Positions 2,278 through 59,115 of a stretch of 64,000 bases of DNA are shown here, one piece after another. Position numbers and translations under genes: made by a program. Below the pieces are notes generated by a model, which did no database searches, was not told the origin of the DNA, and saw only the letters and a list, made by a program, of their open reading frames with translations. The stretch comes from Eledone cirrhosa (Eukaryota). Position 1 is the stretch's first letter. Each line of letters begins with the position of its first letter. The stretch lies in the NCBI GenBank assembly GCA_964016885.1, contig OZ024742.1:329096001-329160000 (forward strand), given 5' to 3'.

Positions 2278-2280
<3 letters not shown>

Positions 2281-3087
2281 AGTATGTATACGTACATACA
2301 TATATGTATACAGACGTACAGTAGTATGTATATATATATACATACATGCACACATATATATATATAAGTATGTATACGTACATACATATATATATACATA
2401 CGTACAGTAGTATGTATATATATAAATACATGCACACATGTGTATATGTACGTATGGACTTACCGAACATTTATTATAATGTTCGGTTTGTTTGTAAACA
2501 AACATCCCGAATTAAGTCGTAGAGTATTTAGCAACCATCGTTGCCCTTTTGTTCAACACTGACAAAGGAACGATGTACTAAGCTTATTAGCTATCGTCAC
2601 CACCGTATACCTTCCTGCTAGATGATTGAACGTCTGAAAATATATACTTTCCTTATGCATATTAACGGCTGAGCAGCCTAATTTGCATATCGAGTGAGTT
2701 AATCGGCCGGGGGCACCGAAAACGATAAACGGAAAAAATGAAACGAAATTTCATTTCTCACACTTAGTACCGTTGTTACTTAAATATAAGTATGTATACG
2801 TACATACATATATGTATACAGACGTACAGTAGTATGTATATATATATACATACATGTACATATATATATATGTACGTATGGATTTACCGAACATTTATTA
2901 TAATGCTCCGTTTCTTTGTAAACAAATGTTCGGTAAATCCATACGTACATATATATATGTGTGCATGTATGTATATATATACATACTACTGTACGTCTGT
3001 ATACATATATGTATGTACGTATACATACTTATATTTAAGTAACTGCCGAATTAAGAGTGAGAAATGAAATTTCGTTTCATTTTTTCC

Positions 3088-3091
<4 letters not shown>
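2278..3091. mobile_element. Family A retrozyme-like repeat, more than one unit plus inverted arm
   Basis: Homologous to 5388-6215 and 31325-31821. The HHR at ~2570-2606 has lost GAAA. Flanked by (TA)n on both sides. Confidence 0.75.
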
Positions 3092-5387: not shown

Positions 5388-6211
5388 AAATGGAAAAGAA
5401 TGAAACAAAATTTCATTTCTCACTCTTAGTACGGCTGATACTTAAATGTAAGTATGTATGAATATGTACATACATATATGTATACAGACGTACAGTAGTA
5501 TGTATATATATACATACATGCACACATATATATATATATGTACGTATGGGTTTACCGAACATTTATTATAATGTTCGGTTTGTTCGTTTGTAAACAAACA
5601 GCCCGAATTACGCCGTACAGTGTTCAGGCAACCATTGTCGCCTTTTTGTTCAACAAATGACACAGGAATGATGTACTAGTTTCAACCTTATTAGCTATCG
5701 TCAACATCGTATACCTACCTGCCAGATGATTTAACGTCTGAAAGTATGTACTTTCCTTATGCATATTAACGGCTGAGCAGCCTAATTTGCATATCGAGTG
5801 AGATAGTCGGCCGGGTGAACCGAAAACGATAAATGAAAAAGAATGAAACGACTAACTCACTCGATATGCAAATTAGGCTGCTCAGCCGTTAATATGCACA
5901 AGGAAAGTATATACTTTCAGACGTTCAATCATCTGGCAGGAAGGTATACGATGCTGACGATAGCTAATAAGCTTGAAACTAGTTCATCGTTCCTGTGTCA
6001 GTGTTGAACAAAAAGGCGACAATGGTTGCCTGAACACTGTACGGCGTAATTCGGGCTGTGTGTTTGTTTACAAACGAACAAACCGAACATTATAATAAAT
6101 GTTCGGTAAACCCATACGTACATATATATATGTGTGCATGTATGTATATATATATATATACTACCGTACGTCTGTATACATATATGTATGTACGTATACA
6201 TACATACTTAC

Positions 6212-6215
<4 letters not shown>
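5388..6215. mobile_element. Family A retrozyme-like repeat, two copies head-to-head
   Basis: Left arm 5388-5850 (-), right arm ~5850-6215 (+). The unit restarts at 5831 (period 443). (TA)n flanks. Confidence 0.8.
5948..5990 (+). ncRNA. Minimal type I hammerhead (family A)
   Basis: ACGATG-CTGACGA-tAGCTaataAGCTt-GAAA-CTAG-TT^CATCGT with palindromic stem III ACTAGT. The mirror copy at 5668-5710 (-) has a C3U change. Confidence 0.85.
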
Positions 6216-6263
<48 letters not shown>

Positions 6264-10066: not shown

Positions 10067-10853
10067 TATATTTAGCGACAATGACATTTCGGCGAGTAGA
10101 AATTAGCGAAACGCAACTTCAGGATTGTGTCAGCAAGTGATCAATGGATATAAATATACCAGAGCTAAACATAAGTTAAATGCCATACAAAATTGAGATG
10201 ATGGTTAAGAAGCCATTAACCACCTAAGCCACAAAGCGAGCAAGCTAAGCGGGTGAAACAAAAACATAAGATTGAAATAATTACCCGGACCCTCAGGAAT
10301 GATCGTATAATCCGATATAGGGTTTCGGCGACTCCTAAATCAATAATACTGTCTGCTTATAAAAAATAATAAGCCTTTGGTACAATGATCCAACAAGAAA
10401 ATCACTTTCTCAACAGGTGTTTTGTTCAGGGTGCGTCAGGACTCCAGTGTTCAAAACACCTGTGAGGTCCAAAGGTGAGAAAACCCCTATTTTGGCAAAT
10501 GAATTCAATATGTGTAGTCATTGCAGACAATTTACAAAAAAACACAAAAAGAATTATAGATATATATAATTATATATATATATATATAATTATAAGAGAG
10601 TATTGAAGTTTGCTTGAAGCATTGTGGAATAATAAATAAATATATTTAAGTCGTTTGGAAGCCTCGACAATGCAAATGGGTAAATCTCCGGGTAACAAGA
10701 TCCGGTGGTGGAGAGAGAGATGTAAGTGGGTGTACGTTGAGATGCGTGGTGTGTAAAGATGTGTAAATGTGTGGAAGAAAGAAGGGAAGAGTATAAAGGA
10801 TAAAAGACAAATAACAACACAAGAGAGAGTTACCTTGGTAGAGATTTAATAGT

Positions 10854-10889
10854 CCCTATATATTTCGGATTCACATCCATCAACAGGGG
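10854..10889 (-). ncRNA. Hammerhead-like motif in the PLE pLTR
   Basis: CCC CTGTTGA tGGATgtgaATCC GAAA TATA TA GGG; core position 6 is non-canonical. A degenerate copy lies at 12859-12894 (+). Confidence 0.55.
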
Positions 10890-11273
10890 GTTTTTTTCCG
10901 GGGTAAAGGTTGTCTGTTGGACAGGTACGAAACGCGTCCCCCACTGTTTGTTGTTTTGAATATCAGAGGGATTCGGCAGAGCGCGCGTGCGCATGAAATG
11001 GGGTCGGTCGGACAGAGGTCAGCGGCCGAATGAGGGAGTGGGGTAGCGCTAGCTGTCAGTCCATTCTCTGCCTGTTTGTTAAATGTTACTGGGTTTGTGT
11101 GCGTGTGTTGTTGTCTCGCTTGAGTGTGTGTGTGTGCGCGTGTGTAGTTGCCTTGTTCCTCTGTATTGGCAGTGTAGTATGTTCGTATGGTGGAATGCTA
11201 CTGTGTGTGTGTGTGTGTGTAGTTGTCTCGTTTGTGTGTGCGTGTGTTGTGTGTTGCTACATCGTTTGTTAAC

Positions 11274-12720
11274 TTAAACCAGCCATCTCATTTCGCTTCT
11301 CTCTAATCGGTTGTTTATTTGTGGTTGCAGGCGTTTGATAAAAAGTGCTTCCTTGATACGTAACGTGCCGACGTTTCTTTCAGTCGCTAGAATTGTGACA
11401 ATGGGCCTTCCGTCTTTGTTTCCACATTTTTCTATGTGTTTCCGGATAGACGAGGCCCTGGTTTTAGTGTGTTCCTTGATCCGGATGTGCAAAGGTCGGA
11501 TTGTGCTACCTATGTAGTATTGGTTGCACCTGTCACATTCTATCTTATACACGACGTATGTGCGTAGGCAACAGGTCGCATGGCGTATCGGGCAGTCTCT
11601 GAGGGAGCATGCGTCAGTAGATTTCCCGGGTTTCTTGGAGAGGCATCTTCGCAGGGAGGGGCCCGAGTGGGCCAGGTGGATGTCGAGGCCCTCCCTCCGT
11701 ATAGCCTTGCGGATAGCGTTGGTGGTATTCTCGCCCAGATGTGGAATTTTAAGGAAGCACTTGCCTTGGGTGCCTCTCTGTCTCTTCTATCTGGTGTCTC
11801 CTATTCTGTCTGTGATCGAGGTAGGGTACCCGTTCGTCTCCAGCACCTCGAGGAATCGCTTGGTATGAGTGACACCACTCGCGGGATCGCTGCATCTGTT
11901 TTTGATTCGCGCGATCTCGTTCGTGATGTATCCTCTTTTGGCACTGTTCGGGAGGGCGGACTTGTAGTGAACGAACAGGTCCCTGCAGGCTGCCTTTCGG
12001 TAGAAGTTGCAGTGGATACTTCCCTGTTCCGTGATGTTGATTCGGAAGTCGAGGAGGGCAAGTGACCCGTCTTCGTTGGGGTGTTCAACACTGAAGTCAA
12101 TGTTCTCGTCCGTGTTGTTGAACGTCTCATAGATTCTGTTCGCCGTGTCTTGGGAAGATGTGAGGATGAGGATATCGTCCACGTACCTTGAGAAAAAGGC
12201 TACGGCGTTGGGGTGGTAGTCGTTGAGTGCCTTGCGTTCGAGGTTGTCCATGTAAGAGATCGCTAGCACACCTGATAGGCTTGATCCCATGGGCAATCCC
12301 GAGGTTTGTTGGTATGTTTGGTCAAGGAATCCGAAGTAGGTGTTGTCGACGACGATGGATAGGAGTTGGTGGATGTCAGTGGTGGTGAGCCCGAAGCAGT
12401 GTAATTAGGTGGATTGGACGCGTTCCATCAGTATATTGACGGCCGGGAGTGCCGGGACGGGGGTGTAGAGAGCGACTACATCAAGGCTGAAGGCATATCT
12501 GTTATTCCTTCTGGTGTCGGGATCCATTTGATGCAGGCGCTTCAACACCTCCTCGGAGCTTTTAACGTGTCCCGGCAAGGTGTCTAAGATGGGTTTGAGT
12601 ATTCTGGCTAGGAGCCAAGAAATTTCGTAGAGTGGTCCCTCCACGCTCGATACGATGGGCCTGATCTTCAGGTCGGGTCCCTGTTTGTGTGTTTTCACGA
12701 GTTAGTAGAAGGCGGGTAGT
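11274..12720 (-). pseudogene. PLE reverse transcriptase plus GIY-YIG endonuclease, one frame with nonsense codons
   Basis: ORFs 12405-12698, 11787-12296 and 11274-11552 share one frame. Motifs: KTHK..IRPIVS, SLDVVALY, PMGSSLSG, RYVDD, linker CSLRDCPIRHATCC, VYKIECDRCNQYYIGST..RIKEH. Interrupted by TAA (12405) and TAG (11787). Confidence 0.93.
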
Positions 12721-13235
12721 CAGCAGTTCCTCTGCCAGACCGACCCCATTTCACGCGCACGCGCGCTCTGCCGAATACCTCAGATATTCAAAACAACAAA
12801 CAGCGGAGGACGCGTTTCACACCTGTCCGACAGACAACCTTTACCCCGGAAACAAACCCCCCAGTTGATGGACGTGAATCCGAAATATATAGGGACTATT
12901 AAATCTCTCCCAAGGTAACTCTCTCTTGCGTTGTTATTATAATTTTATCCTTTATACTCTTCCCTTCTTTCTTCCACACATTTACACATCTTTACACACC
13001 ACGCATCTCAACGTACACTCACTTACATCTCTCTCTCCACCACCGGATCTTGTTACCCGGAGATTTACCCATTTGCATTGTCGAGGCTTCCAAACGACTT
13101 AAAGATATTTATTCATATATATTTATATATATATATAATTATATATATATATATAATTATAAATAATTATATATATTTATATAATTATATATATTTATAT
13201 AATTATATATATATATATAATTATATATATATATA

Positions 13236-22874: not shown

Positions 22875-23713
22875 ATGTCTATATATATATATGTGTGTGT
22901 GTATGTGTATATATATGCGTGTGTATGTATATATATATGTGTGTGTATCTATATATATATGTATGTGTGTATCTATATATATATATGTGTGTGTATCTAT
23001 ATATATATATGTGTGTGTATCTATATATATATATGTGTGTGTATATATATATATGTGTACTTTTGTGTATGATGTCTATGTGCACATGTCTCTATACAAT
23101 ACACACATGCACGCATACACACGCACGTGTGTGAACGCGTCGGCATGGAATGAACAAAATGATGGTGACACCTAGTAATAGGCGTTAAATTCTCCTTCCA
23201 ATTACATCCCAATATCTTAAGAGACTTAACGGGTTGGAGCTTATCTCATTTTCATTGGTGTTAAGCGACAGATTAAAAGACTCCAGTCTGGACGGAAGGC
23301 CTGTCTATTGTAGTTTGTTTACACCATTGCTGCTGCAACTACATAATCTTTTTAACAGAATGAAGTATCTTAATATTTTATTTCGTGGTTATTCGTTGTC
23401 ATCGGTTTTCAAATATTCTCCGTATGATGAGTTGTTCAGAAGGGATGGAGATGTCATTTTATTATTTCTTGCTCTACAGGTGGCTGGATAATCAGATTTA
23501 TTAAAGAATAAAAGTGGATGAAATCTAAAAAAAAATCTGCCAAGTACTGGCGTCGATTTAATCAATTAATTAATACATTAACCTCACAAATCTGATTCTC
23601 TGTCGATTTAAAATATTAATAATAAATGTTGTTGTTTCCTTAGTTTTTTTTTTTGTTTTATGCAGTTGATGTTGATTTATATATTTAAATTTTCCACTAT
23701 TTTTCTTTAACAG

Positions 23714-24332
23714 GAACCAAATGCCAGTGACAATTAAGGGACAGATAACCATGGAAAAAACACCAAGTTACTTCATCACACGAGATGTTCCACGTCGAAT
23801 CCACAGTATGTCAAAAGATGTGAAATTGATCGTTGTTGTACGTGATCCTGTCACCCGTGCTATCTCTGATTATACACAAACTATGACCAAAAGACACATG
23901 TTACGCCAGTTCGAACAAATGGCATTTGTCAATAACAACACACGGATTGTGGACACATCGTGGGGAGCTATCCGAATAGGTGTATATGCTAAGCATCTTC
24001 AGTCTTGGTTGAAGTATTTCCCACTAGAACAAATGCATTTTGTTAGCGGCGAGAAATTAATTTCAGATCCTGCCGGAGAAATGACATTATTACAAGATTT
24101 TCTCGGACTTAAACGGGTCATTAATGAAAAACACTTTTTCTTTAACGAAACAAAAGGTTTTCCTTGTTTGAAGAAAATAGAAGGCAGTGGTCACCCGCAC
24201 TGTTTAGGTAAAACTAAGGGTCGCCAGCATCCAGCAATAGACCCACGTGTAATTCAAAGATTGAGGGACTTTTATCGGCCATTTAACACAAAATTTTATA
24301 GTATGGCAAAACGGAATTTTGAGTGGCCCTGA
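23714..24332 (+). CDS. HS3ST: Heparan sulfate glucosamine 3-O-sulfotransferase, terminal coding exon (HS3ST2/3/4/6- or Hs3st-B-like)
   Basis: Translation has [26 protein letters not shown] (3'-PAPS-binding), KGFPC and [13 protein letters not shown] polypyrimidine tract and AG acceptor (ttttctttaacag|G) lie at 23713; the phase-2 junction matches the conserved WYR intron of two-exon HS3ST genes. Stop TGA is at 24330-24332. The 5'-PSB exon (IGVKKGGT) was not seen in the window. Confidence 0.95.
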
Positions 24333-31324: not shown

Positions 31325-31821
31325 AAATGGAATAGAATGAAACGATATTTCATTTCTCACTCTTAGTCGGCACTTACTTAAATGTAAGTATGTATACAGA
31401 CGTACAGTAGTATGTATATATATATACATACATGCACACACATATATATATATATACACACGTATCGGTTTACCGAACATTTATTATAATGGTCGGTTTG
31501 TTTGTTTGTAAACAAACAAACAGCCCGAATTACGCCGTACAGTGTTTAGGCAACCACGTCACCTTTTTGTTCAACACTGACACAGGAACGGTGTACTAGT
31601 TTCAAGCTTATTAGCTATCGTCAGCATCGTATACCTTCCTGCCAGATGGTTGAACGTCTGAAAGTATATACTTTTCTGATGCATATTAACGGCTGAGCAG
31701 CCTAATTTGCATATCGAGTGAGTTTAGTCGGCCGGGCACACCGAAAACGATAAATGGAAAAGAATGAAAGGAAATTTCATTTCTCACTCTTAATACGGCA
31801 CTTACTTAAATGTAAGTATGT
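31325..31821 (-). mobile_element. Family A retrozyme-like repeat, ~1.15 units
   Basis: The unit start aaatggaa recurs at 31325 and 31752 (period 427). Confidence 0.8.
31588..31630 (-). ncRNA. Minimal type I hammerhead (family A)
   Basis: ACGATG CTGACGA TAGCTAATAAGCTT GAAA CTAG TA^CACCGT; intact core with one stem I mismatch. Confidence 0.85.
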
Positions 31822-40175: not shown

Positions 40176-40760
<585 letters not shown>

Positions 40761-54303: not shown

Positions 54304-54341
<38 letters not shown>

Positions 54342-54342
<1 letters not shown>

Positions 54343-54911
54343 TTAAATTCTCATACTCTACAACAAATAACATAAAACAAAATATAAGTGCCTATAATGC
54401 ATATAAATGTAAGAAAACCATAAGTATACCACCAGTACATCAAATTAACCATAATATCTCCTCAAATACAGAATTAACGAAAGGTTGTAACTGTAGAAAC
54501 AAAGCAAACTGCCCATTAAAAGGGAATTGTCTTGTTAACAACATAGTCTATAAATGTAATGTTAAAACTAAAGATTCTATTTGCTCATATATAGGAGCTA
54601 CCTCTAACAATTATAAGACAAGGTTTAATACCCACAAGCATAGTTTTAAAAATGCCGCACTGGCTAATACAACATCTCTAGCAGAAAAAATCAATACTTA
54701 TAAAAATAAGAATATAGAATATGATTTGACCTGGAGTGTGCTCAAAAGAGCCACCCCTTATCAAAATAATAGAAATGAATGTAGATTATGTTCCCAAGAA
54801 CTATTTGAAATAATGAAATCTAAGGATATCCTATTAAATAAACGACAGGAATTAATTATATCGTGTAATCATAAACTAAAAAAAACATTTAAATATTATA
54901 AACCTAACTAA
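54342..54911 (+). pseudogene. C-terminal GIY-YIG endonuclease region of a 5'-truncated PLE
   Basis: Manual translation is open for ~190 codons: VKFSYSTTNN..CNCRNKANCPLKGNCLVNNIVYKC..SYIGATSNNYKTRFNTHKHSF..WSVLKRA..CRLCSQE..LLNKRQELIISCNHK. There is no start codon and the 5' end joins a microsatellite. Confidence 0.88.
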
Positions 54912-56274
54912 TAACATTATTTTAGAAATTAATTTAATTTAAATGTTAGTTAACCTATAAATTTAATTTAATTAAAATTCTATTACAGATGAGAATATAA
55001 AATATTGTGTAATCATAAATTGTGAAAAACTTTTAAATATTACTAATATATACTTAGTAATTTAATTTATAGATTAATTTTAATTTATTTAAACCTTTTA
55101 TTAAAATTCCTTTACAGATAAAATAAAACAAAATATCGTGTATCCAATGACAGAGAAATAATTTTTAGTATTATAGACCTAATTAATATACATTTTAGAA
55201 ATATATTTATAATTTGGTTTTAAATTTAGTCAACCTAAAAATTTAATTTAATTGGCTTAAAATTAGTATCCTTATACAGACGGATTGCAGAATGTCATGT
55301 AATCATAGAATGGGATGTGTTTTGGATATATACCTAGTTAATATATTCTTTGCAATTTTTGAAAAAATATGTATATGTAAGTATGTATGTGTATGTGTAT
55401 GCGTGTGTGTATGTGTGTATATATATATATATGTATATATGTATATATATGTATATATATATGTGTATGTATATGTATATGTATTTGTATTAATTTTGAT
55501 TTCTATTTGCATATAATTATATTCTGCTATTGATAAAATACAATATCTGTTTTATTTATTATATACCTAATTAACATATACTATAGAAATTAATATATAA
55601 TTTTTAATTTAGTTAACCTATAATTTATATTCTACTACCGATGTAATACTTTATTTGTTTTTTCCCTATTACTAAATTCATTTCCTAATATTGATACCAT
55701 AACGTTATTAACTTTAATTTAGTTATACTATAATTAATACTCTACTACTATTTAACTTCAAAATTCTGCTTCAAATATTATAAACCTAACTAATTTACAC
55801 CTTAGAAATCAATATGTTAACTATCTTTAGTTTAGTTAACATATAATTAATGGTATACTTATTTATTTTGAAATGCATAAATTTTGCCTTATTTCTTGTA
55901 TTTCCTAACACTAAAACTATGTAAAAACATACATTGGATCCAGATACAGATAATATTCTATGTTTCTTGAAACATATATTTACTATAATCCCCTTATCCA
56001 AACCCCCCCCTTTCCCCCATACTATTATCATCTGTGTTTGTAAGCGTGTATGTATGAATATATATGTAGGTAGGTGTATATATGTTTGGGTATTTATATC
56101 TGAATATAAAAATACATATATGCGCATGCAAATAAGAATGTAAGATTGTGTATATATATGTGTGTGTATGTATGGATATATGTGTATATGTGCATGTGTA
56201 TATGTATGTGTATGTGTATGTGTGTATGTATATATATGTGTATATGTGTATATGTGTGTGGGCGTGTATGTGTG

Positions 56275-56337
<63 letters not shown>

Positions 56338-56526
56338 ATGTATGTATGTATATATATGTGTGTGTATATATATGTATGTCTCTCTATTTATATGTCTATC
56401 TTCGTATCTATGTGGGTATATGTGTGTGTGTGCATGTATGCACATGTATGTGTTTACGTGTATATGTGTGTATGTGTATATATGTACGTGTGCGCACATA
56501 TATATGTGAGTGTGTGTGTGTGTGTG

Positions 56527-56565
<39 letters not shown>

Positions 56566-56592
56566 ATATATGTCTATATTCGTATGTGTATA

Positions 56593-56631
<39 letters not shown>

Positions 56632-56855
56632 TATTATTATAATATAACTTATGTGTATGTGTGTATATGTGAGGGTGTGTATATGTATATATATGTGTAT
56701 ATATATGTGTAAAAAAATATATATGTGTATGTCTGTTTTTTTTTTGTTTTTTTTTGTGTGTGTGTATATATATGTATGTGTATATATATGTGTATGTGTG
56801 TGTTTGTTTGTGTGTTTATGGTTGTATGTGTGTGTGGGTGTGTATATATATAAAT

Positions 56856-56897
<42 letters not shown>

Positions 56898-57224
56898 ATA
56901 TATATCTCTATTAATGCGTGTATATATGTATATGTATATGCCTTTTTCTTTGTATGTCTGAGTTGTGTGAGGGTGTAGTGGTGTTTGTATGTATATACGC
57001 ATATATGGATGTGTATGTATTTATGTATATGAGTATATGTAAATTCGTATGTAAGTATGAATATATATCTATTTCTATGTATGAGTATATATGTGTGTGT
57101 ATGTATGTTGTGTGTGTATGTATGTATGTGTCTATGTGTGTATATATATGTATATATGTGTGTGTATGTATGTATGTATGTGTATGTATGTACATATATG
57201 TCTATGTATGTGTGTATGTATATG

Positions 57225-57277
<53 letters not shown>

Positions 57278-57385
57278 TTATTTTATATATATGTGTGTGT
57301 GTGTATGTGTGTGTATGACTATATATGTATGTGTGTATGTATGTATATGTATGTGTGTGTACATGTATGTATGCGTGTGTATGTA

Positions 57386-57446
<61 letters not shown>

Positions 57447-58585
57447 ATATATATGTATATGTATCTCTATTTGTATATGTATATGTGTATAGGTATATAC
57501 CTTTTTCTTCGTATGTCTGAGTTGTGTGAGAGTGTAGTGGTGTTTGTATGTATATACCGATATATGGATGCGTAAGTATTTGTGTGTATGTATGTATGTA
57601 TGTCTGTATGTATTTGTGTGTATATATAGGTATGTATGTGTATATCTGTATGTATATAAGTATGTATGTGTATGTATATGTGCGTGTATGTGTGTATATA
57701 TATGTGTGTCTATATAGTATGTGTGATTATATATGTATATATGTGTGTATATATATATGTATATATATATATATATATATATTTATATGTATGTGTGTAT
57801 ATGTGTGTATGTGTGTATATGTATATGTTTATATATGTGTGTGTATGTATGTTCTAAGTGTGGTTGTGTGTATATGTATGTATATGTTTATATATATATG
57901 TATATATATATATATATATATGTATATGTATGTATGTGTATGTATATATATATATATATATATATTTTCTTGATATATTTCTTTTTTCTTTTTTCCTTTT
58001 CTTTTCTTTACTTTTTAATTTTTATTTTTATTTTCTTAGTTTATAGATACATCTATAATAAGCAGTCTGCCCAAACCGTTGAATACTGACCTCTCCCCCC
58101 CTCCCACCTAATTTATGTATCTTGATCTAAATGTGTGTGGCAGTGTTTATGTGAGTGAATTAATATCCATGTGTTTATGATGATATTATATCCACATATA
58201 TATATGTGAGTGGGGGTGTGTGTGTGTTTGTATGTTCGTAATTATGTGTATGTTTATGCATATACGCGCGCGTGTGTGTGATTGTACGGATATGTGTGAG
58301 TATGAGAATATGTGTATACACTTATTTCATATTTATGTGTCTATACGCATCTTATCTGTGCATTATAAACTTACAGAGACATTAACCTTGAAATTTTGTA
58401 TTTGCATCCATCCTTTTTGGTATGCGTATACATGTTGAGCATACATTTTTGTAAAATATGTGTAAGGGTAGTTACATGTATATACACACACCGAACTGCA
58501 TAAAACCTTTTTGTATTTTCATTGGTCAATTTTGTTCCCAAACGGATCTGAAATTTTGAATTGTTGTTATTATCAATAAATATAT

Positions 58586-58739
58586 TTCATTATTTCTGAA
58601 GACGGCGTATATATGTGTTGGTATGTATATTTAATCTTGATAGTTTGTATAATTTTGTATAATTTTGTACATAGATCTGTTGAATATGCATGCCAATTCT
58701 AACACATATATATCCTAGAAACGATCGTTAAATAATGAA
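58586..58739 (+). ncRNA. Type I hammerhead with a ~115-nt stem II domain
   Basis: TTCATTATTT CTGAAGA ..TATATATGTGTT...AACACATATATA.. GAAA CGATCG TT^AAATAATGAA; perfect 10-bp stem I. Confidence 0.8.
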
Positions 58740-59115
58740 CTTTTTTTGTTTAATATAAGGAACTGTTTCATTGTTTTATTCATTATTTGTTTAATATTTT
58801 ATCTTGACTCTGTATACCGTTTATCTTTCACCGAAAGTGATTTTTCATTACATCTCTTCTTTCCATGATATCCGAAATACATTGAGTTCTTCATACGGAT
58901 TGGACACTACCGTAAACTCTTGGTAGATTTATCTACATATATATATATATATATATTCTTACTCTTTCTATTTATCCCCCCTTTCTCTCTAGTTTTACAG
59001 AAACTTTCTGTGGTCTAACATCGGTGTGAATAGACACCGTTAAGATTAAAATGTCCGCCAAATGTTATTGGATCAGTGATAGGGCAAACTCTGTATTGAT
59101 ATAACAGATTTATAA

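What the first reader, a model, noticed from the sequence alone, without database searches (positions are those of the whole stretch)
5388..6215. Family A: ~430-445 bp non-coding retrozyme-like element, candidate circular RNA
Seen: three loci (2278-3091, 5388-6215, 31325-31821) with no ORF. Each full unit has one minimal HHR and internal hairpins (ACCGAACATT/AATGTTCGGT). The unit runs directly back into its own end, giving more than one unit (periods 443 and 427), and shares a fixed 3' end (ttccattt) joined to (TA)n. Established: metazoan non-LTR retrozymes are tandem HHR repeats that give small circRNAs and are thought to be PLE-mobilised. Inference: this is a cephalopod retrozyme family copied from a circular or multimeric RNA.
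Basis: partly seen in the sequence, partly recalled or inferred. Interest (0 to 1): 0.85.

Follow-up and report, generated by a model that had tools for sequence, protein, structure and literature searches.

The report
Two-armed, Penelope-inserted hammerhead retrozyme
This is one mirror-image insertion of an abundant protein-free repeat that carries a hammerhead (self-cutting RNA) motif and a U6-like promoter block; its ends follow the same rule as those of the genome's Penelope-type jumping genes, which likely copy it from RNA, probably a circle, though no RNA was examined.

Summary
The repeat and its hammerhead are real, but the locus was misread. 5388-6216 is two head-to-head arms (1.05 and 0.83 units), not a tandem. 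The hammerhead is an extended type I, not a minimal one, and it is damaged in 2 of the 4 window copies. The genome holds 28,782 cores of this kind. Of 64 two-armed loci, 45 have one long and one short fixed end about 55 nt apart; none has two long ends. Two coding Penelope-like families here follow the same rule, which matches the published two-site initiation by Penelope RT. Arms run through the cut site without run-off (72 vs 83 control), so the template was a circle or an uncut multimer; mixed arrays keep both open. No copy was a coding element's pLTR in 121 loci. Each unit carries an octamer+TATA block like host U6 promoters. Verdict: a variant of metazoan non-LTR retrozymes; circRNA untested. 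The scan already reported this family on other DNA of this genome.

The parts
5388..5851 (-). Left arm, 1.05 units (period 443); its 3' end at 5388 is the family's long fixed end, joined to (TA)n
5849..6216 (+). Right arm, 0.83 unit, inverted; its 3' end at about 6216 is the short fixed end, joined to (TA)n. The arms overlap by 3 nt at 5849-5851
   Evidence: no other sampled locus was closer to the left arm than this arm (4.2% apart)
5388..5442 (-). About 55-nt 'tail' between the two fixed ends, present on one arm only; contains a hairpin
5936..6007 (+). Type I hammerhead: extended bulged stem I, core from 5954, U-U at the base of stem II, one-pair stem III with a palindromic tetraloop; predicted cut after 5984 (GUU^C in this copy, GUA^C in the family)
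   Evidence: best Rfam hit HH9, 18.1 bits, below gathering 52, E 0.024
5668..5710 (-). Second hammerhead, damaged (C3 changed to U, stem II mismatch)
5865..5913 (+). U6-like promoter block: octamer-type 12-mer (5865-5876) and TATA (5907-5913), 41 nt apart, upstream of the hammerhead
   Evidence: function inferred
5746..5793 (-). Same block in the left arm; TATA carries one change
5554..5579 (.).
2278..3091 (.). Second two-arm insertion: minus arm 2278-2926 (short end, with an 86-bp local duplication; broken hammerhead at 2580-2600) and plus arm 2921-3091 (long end)
31325..31821 (-). Single-arm insertion, 1.16 units (period 427), long end at 31325; hammerhead core from 31624, octamer block at 31702-31713

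Best explanation
This is a high-copy non-coding repeat of 420-540 nt with a type I hammerhead motif, inserted into (TA)n as head-to-head arms with one long and one short fixed end; it is likely a non-autonomous retroelement (non-LTR retrozyme) pasted in by a Penelope-like RT/GIY-YIG enzyme, probably from a circular RNA. Shown: copy number, arm layout, end rule, read-through of the cut site, one lineage per insertion, same end rule in coding PLEs. Inferred steps: (1) the octamer+TATA block in one unit would start transcription about 47 nt before the hammerhead cut; (2) successive hammerheads would cut out a monomer, possibly as dimers because stem III is weak, and a host ligase would close it; (3) a PLE enzyme would nick both strands of a TA tract and prime cDNA from both DNA ends at two internal sites 55 nt apart; (4) each RT would run a variable distance, often more than once round, and the two cDNAs would join at their truncated ends; (5) a few insertions later grew into 50-unit arrays by DNA-level duplication. 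The non-autonomous PLE-mobilised part deserves about 0.9; the stated confidence is for the version with a circle as main template.
For: End rule: 45 of 64 two-arm loci are long+short, 0 long+long, 2 short+short, 17 with an unclassified end. 2,509 long-end/TA junctions and 2,790 head-to-tail junctions genome-wide. Same rule in coding PLEs: 4 of 7 two-arm loci of a young family resolved as long+short (137-nt tail), and a second family shows a tail of about 45 nt. Published in vitro: PLE RT nicks and extends both strands and initiates at two internal sites that bound the tail (PMC11167929, parts 1-2 of 4 read). Not simple fold-back: 13 of 45 loci fit neither fold-back length rule. One lineage per insertion: subfamily concordant in 52 of 54 typed arm pairs; differences at family-polymorphic sites 3.0/kb within arms and 3.8/kb between arms vs 16.3/kb between loci. 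Read-through: 93 of 167 arms exceed one unit; breaks exactly at the cut 72 vs 83 at a control site genome-wide; 1 indel in 197 crossed cut sites. Hammerhead kept: none of 27 A/B subfamily differences hits the core, and the one stem I pair that changes stays paired (A-U 84, U-G 62, G-U 20 of 182 segments). Circular fold z = -5.3 vs 40 shuffles. Young arrays nearly homogeneous (L224: 1 variable site in 3 units; L225: 4).
Against: Neither cleavage, nor a circle, nor expression was tested. Units within insertions are more uneven than one copied circle predicts: singleton overdispersion chi2 77.7, df 38, p 1.5e-4, and 14 of 36 insertions have variants shared by only some segments. One 9.5-unit mixed array has an inverted arm that matches one particular unit (L219). 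In the anole PLE the hammerhead was dispensable and unprocessed RNA was the main template. The octamer-TATA spacing is 41 nt vs 45-47 in the 3 host U6 promoters, and sense-strand T4 to T7 runs should stop Pol III before the next hammerhead. The driving PLE was not identified; two families show no homology to the unit. Most sampled loci were chosen by unit motifs on one contig, which inflates read-through counts.
Confidence: 0.52

Rival explanations
1. Same non-autonomous PLE-mobilised element, but the template is an uncut multimeric read-through RNA from existing arrays. The hammerhead acts late or weakly and circles are minor or absent.
For: Uneven and partly shared variants within insertions; mixed 9.5-mer L219 whose inverted arm matches one unit, and ABABA array L207; 50-unit arrays exist as possible sources; weak stem III; PMC11167929 found unprocessed RNA to be the main substrate; the 2026 preprint saw cleavage in only 1 of 9 Xenopus dimers.
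Against: Units in an arm differ at family-polymorphic sites 5-fold less than separate loci; youngest arrays are near-identical; no pile-up of 5' ends at the predicted start (8 of 200 vs about 6.8 expected); core and stem I kept across subfamilies.
Confidence: 0.35
2. The unit is the pLTR or 3' part of a coding PLE not yet found, and the copies are its 5'-truncated insertions.
For: Same end rule as coding PLEs; the 2026 preprint reports Xenopus retrozymes homologous to pLTRs; only two PLE families were examined.
Against: The unit runs head-to-tail into itself 2,790 times. In 121 loci, 17 had a PLE protein hit nearby and only 2 lay in sense upstream; both have their own 3' region and a TA tract before the unit. 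In L057 the unit interrupts a PLE frame in antisense. Descent from an old pLTR is not excluded.
Confidence: 0.09
3. A DNA-level element (MITE, fold-back or dispersed satellite) whose hammerhead is incidental.
For: Inverted arms resemble terminal inverted repeats; some arrays have higher-order repeats made at the DNA level.
Against: Arms are unequal, 5'-truncated at scattered positions, and end at two different fixed sites; 51 of 121 loci are single-armed; the layout is that of RT-encoding PLEs in the same genome.
Confidence: 0.04

Closest known systems
Metazoan non-LTR retrozymes (Cervera and de la Pena 2020, PMC7229834: passages, mussel section and Discussion read; review PMC7761336: passages; Li, Clavereau and Pollet 2026, bioRxiv 10.64898/2026.07.22.740005: parts 1-3 of 5 read)
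   Same: Non-coding short units with a type I hammerhead, from monomers to long arrays, low GC, highly self-paired, co-occurring with PLEs. The U-U at the base of helix II and the one-pair helix III with a palindromic tetraloop resemble the two axolotl motifs.
   Different: Monomer 420-540 nt vs about 170-400 in the 2020 paper (the 2026 survey spans 51-972). Mostly dispersed two-armed insertions with a PLE tail. Carries a promoter-like block, whereas the review says retrozymes seem to lack promoters and any motif pointing to a driver. circRNA untested here.
EN+ Penelope-like elements (Craig et al. 2021, bioRxiv 10.1101/2021.04.23.441226: passages; Frangieh et al. 2024, PMC11167929: parts 1-2 of 4)
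   Same: Partial tandems, inverted 5'-truncated second arm, tail on one end only, (TA)n targets, hammerhead in the repeat.
   Different: No ORF; tail about 55 nt (30-40 typical in the papers; 45 and 137 in this genome's two coding families); hammerhead is extended rather than minimal; no sequence homology to the two coding families tested.
Newt satellite 2 and schistosome Sm-alpha hammerhead repeats
   Same: Tandem hammerhead units with an internal promoter (snRNA-type, Pol II, in newt; Pol III in schistosome), as cited in PMC2220036 (passage only; primary papers not read). Weak helix III with dimeric or extended-stem cleavage (PMC6155905, passages).
   Different: The block here resembles the host U6 (Pol III) upstream layout, not its U2 layout; PLE-type ends were not mentioned for those satellites in the passages seen.

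Membership tests
Metazoan non-LTR retrozyme | Type I hammerhead in each repeat unit | tested here: met
   Core intact in 164 of 182 segments, 47 of 55 in loci not picked by the hammerhead; fold. Rfam HH9 match is below gathering. 2 of 4 window copies are damaged.
Metazoan non-LTR retrozyme | Short tandem repeats, dimers to multimers | tested here: met
   2,790 head-to-tail junctions; arrays up to about 50 units; monomers of 420-538 nt
Metazoan non-LTR retrozyme | Non-coding, GC below 45%, no LTR-retrozyme layout | tested here: met
   No frame of 110 aa or more; about 40% GC on scored non-microsatellite positions (counts). PBS and PPT were not searched.
Metazoan non-LTR retrozyme | Highly self-paired monomer | tested here: met
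   -124.8 kcal/mol vs -92.5 +/- 6.1, z -5.3, 40 shuffles, one copy; partly due to TA-rich palindromes
Metazoan non-LTR retrozyme | Self-cleavage of the transcript | not testable with these tools
   Needs in vitro transcription
Metazoan non-LTR retrozyme | Accumulates as circular RNA | not testable with these tools
   Only contigs of runs of unrecorded kind were available
Autonomous EN+ PLE (unit as pLTR) | RT plus GIY-YIG ORF contiguous with the repeat | tested here: not met
   0 of 121 loci; no homology to flanks of two coding families, 63 loci. A sample, not the whole genome.
PLE-mobilised insertion | Inverted 5'-truncated second arm | tested here: met
   64 of 121 loci
PLE-mobilised insertion | Tail on one end only (two initiation sites) | tested here: met
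   45 long+short, 0 long+long, 2 short+short, 17 unclassified of 64
PLE-mobilised insertion | AT-rich or (TA)n target | tested here: met
   67 of 76 long ends and 59 of 91 short ends followed by TA-rich sequence
U6-type (type 3 Pol III) promoter | Upstream element and TATA at host spacing | tested here: inconclusive
   Both motifs present and in order; 10 of 20,000 shuffles have the pair; spacing 41 vs 45-47 in 3 host U6 loci; T runs conflict with Pol III read-through

The most novel reading that the evidence does not exclude
A self-promoted RNA circle: each unit carries its own U6-type promoter inside the circle, so any insertion longer than about 1.3 units regenerates promoter plus two hammerheads. 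A Penelope RT dimer copies one circle from both ends of a DNA break by rolling round it. That would be a complete, host-promoter-independent cycle for an animal retrozyme, readable from genome sequence.
Probability: 0.3. Interest if true: 0.75.

Novelty: new variant of a known kind. Interest (0 to 1): 0.5.

Why it matters
PLE mobilisation of animal retrozymes has been proposed from co-occurrence and pLTR similarity, and a review states that these repeats show no motif naming their driver and no promoter (PMC7761336). Here the insertion ends carry the PLE two-site signature that was explained biochemically in 2024, with both start sites mapped to the base on a roughly 430-nt RNA. This makes the circle-versus-multimer question directly testable in the existing in vitro PLE assay. 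I found no paper on cephalopod retrozymes in four searches; supplements of the retrozyme surveys and Repbase/Dfam were not seen and may list the family. The element class itself is known.

Tried and rejected
Rfam scan of the whole window: no hammerhead among the 150 rows shown of 294, which were mostly microsatellite-driven miRNA hits. Expression: no RNA holder listed. The contigs laid are from runs of unrecorded kind and cannot show ends, strand or circles, so they are not used as evidence; two other unnamed organisms gave 4 and 5 contigs, one with an opposite-strand joint. RNA-editing scars: a raw A>G excess (135 vs 98, p 0.009) vanished when limited to rare alleles (65 vs 67 single, 8 vs 5 shared), so rejected for this sample. 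Driver search: two coding PLE families show no homology to the unit; the younger 830-aa frame has no Pfam hit and is called a PLE only from motifs, a weak alignment (E 0.28) and its layout. Cleaved linear monomer as template with run-off: rejected. Template jumping between linear monomers is unlikely if it leaves indels (1 of 197), but a clean jump is not excluded. Fold-back on the first cDNA as the only origin of the second arm: rejected (13 of 45). L1-type twin priming, where the first arm stops at the second start: not seen in the arm table (by inspection). U2-type promoter: no octamer upstream of 5 U2 loci printed. Of 14 further U6 hits, 5 parsed had no octamer and 9 were not parsed. Three pairs among 73 unjoined 5' flanks share 72-81% similar sequence and were not inspected. 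Covariation is thin: 1 of 29 pairs with a two-sided change in 16 sequences. Paper search for retrozyme promoters: one hit.

Full report
Observation. The three loci exist. Read on the strand that carries the hammerhead, the unit is about 430-440 nt; I number it r1-r440 from the head-to-tail junction (reference built). The locus in question is not a tandem: 5388-5851 is a minus-strand arm of 1.05 units and 5849-6216 a plus-strand arm of 0.83 unit, joined head to head with a 3-nt overlap. 2278-3091 has the same layout; 31325-31821 is a single arm of 1.16 units. No frame of 110 aa or more covers these loci.

Hammerhead. The motif is type I: 6-bp proximal stem I, an internal loop and a long distal stem, a 4-bp stem II closed by U-U, and a one-pair stem III with a palindromic tetraloop. 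The best Rfam match of the local region is HH9 at 18.1 bits, below its gathering score of 52. The core is intact in 164 of 182 sampled segments, and in 47 of 55 from loci not picked by the hammerhead. None of the 27 fixed differences between subfamilies A and B lies in the core. The one stem I pair that changes stays paired as A-U (84), U-G (62) or G-U (20). Overall covariation is thin, 1 of 29 pairs. In the window, the copies at 2580-2600 and 5704 are damaged, 5954 has GUU at the cut, and 31624 has one stem I mismatch. Weak helix III motifs are reported to cut as dimers or through extended stem I (PMC6155905, passages). Activity is untested.

Abundance. The 3.0-Gb genome has 9,489 exact matches to the 33-nt core and 28,782 to a looser core pattern, with controls of 0. 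It has 2,790 head-to-tail junctions and 2,509 long-end/TA junctions; these are exact-pattern lower bounds. Sister subfamilies with monomers of 420-538 nt align over the whole unit (18 loci fetched, 9 monomers aligned). Two arrays of about 50 units show higher-order repeats, which points to later DNA-level growth; one keeps its short inverted arm.

Insertion anatomy. I mapped 152 fetched stretches, which collapsed to 121 distinct loci. They came from a similarity search and from the first listed matches of two unit motifs, mostly on one contig, so the sample favours copies that hold those motifs. 64 loci are head-to-head two-arm insertions. 45 have one arm ending at r440 and the other at about r385; none has two long ends, 2 have two short ends, and 17 have an end I could not class. 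67 of 76 long ends and 59 of 91 short ends run into TA-rich sequence. 5' ends are scattered. In 13 of the 45, arm lengths fit neither way of making the second arm by folding back on the first, so both arms were primed separately. The two arms belong to the same subfamily in 52 of 54 typed pairs.

Link to Penelope-like elements. Craig et al. 2021 describe partial tandems, an inverted truncated copy, a tail on one end and (TA)n bias for PLEs (passages). Frangieh et al. 2024 showed in vitro that a PLE protein nicks and extends both strands and starts at two internal RNA sites that bound the tail (parts 1-2 of 4). Two coding families in this genome do the same. One has RT and GIY-YIG Pfam hits and a tail of about 45 nt. 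A very young one (830-aa frame, 6,673-nt unit, no Pfam hit, PLE by motifs only) ended long+short in 4 of 7 two-arm loci, with a 137-nt tail; the other 3 were not resolved. Neither shares sequence with the unit, so the driver is unnamed. Of 121 loci, 17 had a PLE protein hit nearby and 2 lay in sense upstream; both are separate elements with their own 3' region and a TA tract before the unit. The unit is therefore not behaving as a pLTR in this sample.

What RNA was copied. 138 of 167 arms with a fixed end pass the hammerhead cut and 93 exceed one unit (inflated by sampling). The unbiased test is genome-wide: copies that break exactly at the cut number 72, against 83 at a control position 6 nt away. 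1 of 197 crossed cut sites has an indel. A cleaved linear monomer with run-off is excluded; a circle or an uncut multimer remains. For the circle: units in an arm differ at family-polymorphic sites at 3.0/kb and opposite arms at 3.8/kb, against 16.3/kb between loci of one subfamily; the youngest arrays are near-identical; 5' ends do not gather at the predicted start (8 of 200 vs about 6.8); the circular monomer folds at z -5.3. Against: private changes are unevenly spread among units (chi2 77.7, df 38, p 1.5e-4), and 14 of 36 insertions have variants shared by only some segments. One 9.5-unit mixed array has an inverted arm matching a single unit, and another alternates two unit types. The anole PLE used unprocessed RNA. 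Later gene conversion or duplication could explain part of this. I put the circle at about 0.52 and the multimer at 0.35; both may operate.

Promoter-like block. Prompted by earlier notes of this scan, I compared the unit with host snRNA genes. Three distinct U6 loci have an octamer-type element at -76 to -78 and a TATA at -31. The unit has the same two motifs in the same order, the 12-mer identical to one U6 locus, 41 nt apart in every sister locus where both were found; each was intact in 135 of 148 segments. 10 of 20,000 shuffles have such a pair; the test is post hoc. By U6 geometry the start would fall near r112, at the 5' strand of stem I and 47 nt before the cut. Two problems remain: the spacing is 4-6 nt short, and sense-strand T4 to T7 runs should stop Pol III before the next hammerhead, yet long ends of subfamily B lie beyond the T7 run. 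U2 loci lack the octamer. The block's function is inferred only.

RNA evidence. None. No run on record as RNA was listed, and contigs cannot show circles. An apparent A>G bias disappeared on rare alleles.

Comparison and novelty. It works like, and on the testable features belongs with, metazoan non-LTR retrozymes (PMC7229834; preprint 10.64898/2026.07.22.740005); cleavage and circRNA are untested defining features. It differs from the published picture in showing PLE two-site ends and a promoter-like block, which the review says are absent (PMC7761336, passages), although internal promoters are cited for newt and schistosome hammerhead satellites (PMC2220036, passage). Searches found no paper on cephalopod retrozymes; supplements and repeat databases were not seen. 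The scan has already noted this family and layout at other places in this genome; those notes are unchecked and are not counted as support. Verdict: new variant of a known kind, interest 0.5.

Noticed in passing
window 10585-13110: Truncated coding PLE (RT and GIY-YIG Pfam hits) on the minus strand, with an inverted pLTR arm and the long/short end rule in TA.
   Followed up: yes
window 54327-58940: 5'-truncated copy of a very young PLE-like family (6,673-nt unit, 830-aa frame, many copies 99% identical in the EN domain). The TA/TG-rich block at 56149-57965 appears to be part of its long 3' region. No canonical hammerhead core was found in the unit.
   Followed up: partly
window 1148/1168, 17462, 31917, 38651, 40853/40967, 41646, 49687/49829, 62136: Further hammerhead-like cores of other families, several as inverted pairs. 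The 62136 motif resembles the one behind a coding PLE in L193.
   Followed up: no
window 23676-24332 (+): Sulfotransferase-domain frame (PF00685, E 7.5e-30), probably an exon of a host gene; the repeats lie around it.
   Followed up: no
window 40409-40760: 184-bp tandem of strongly palindromic units separated by (TA)n.
   Followed up: no
L057:1219-2123: A two-unit copy interrupts a PLE frame in antisense with an apparent 9-bp target duplication; part of the composite is repeated as an inverted arm at L057:1-493, suggesting later carriage by that PLE.
   Followed up: partly
L214-L216 and L221-L223: Arrays of about 50 units (21 kb) with higher-order repeats of 4, 6 and 10 units: satellite birth from a retrozyme insertion.
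   Followed up: partly
L246-L248 upstream of U6; L258-L263 upstream of U2: Host U6 genes carry an octamer-type element at about -77 where a PSE is expected (recalled), and U2 genes show a TATA-like run near -31. Tandem U6 and U2 gene clusters lie on C19 and C3.
   Followed up: partly
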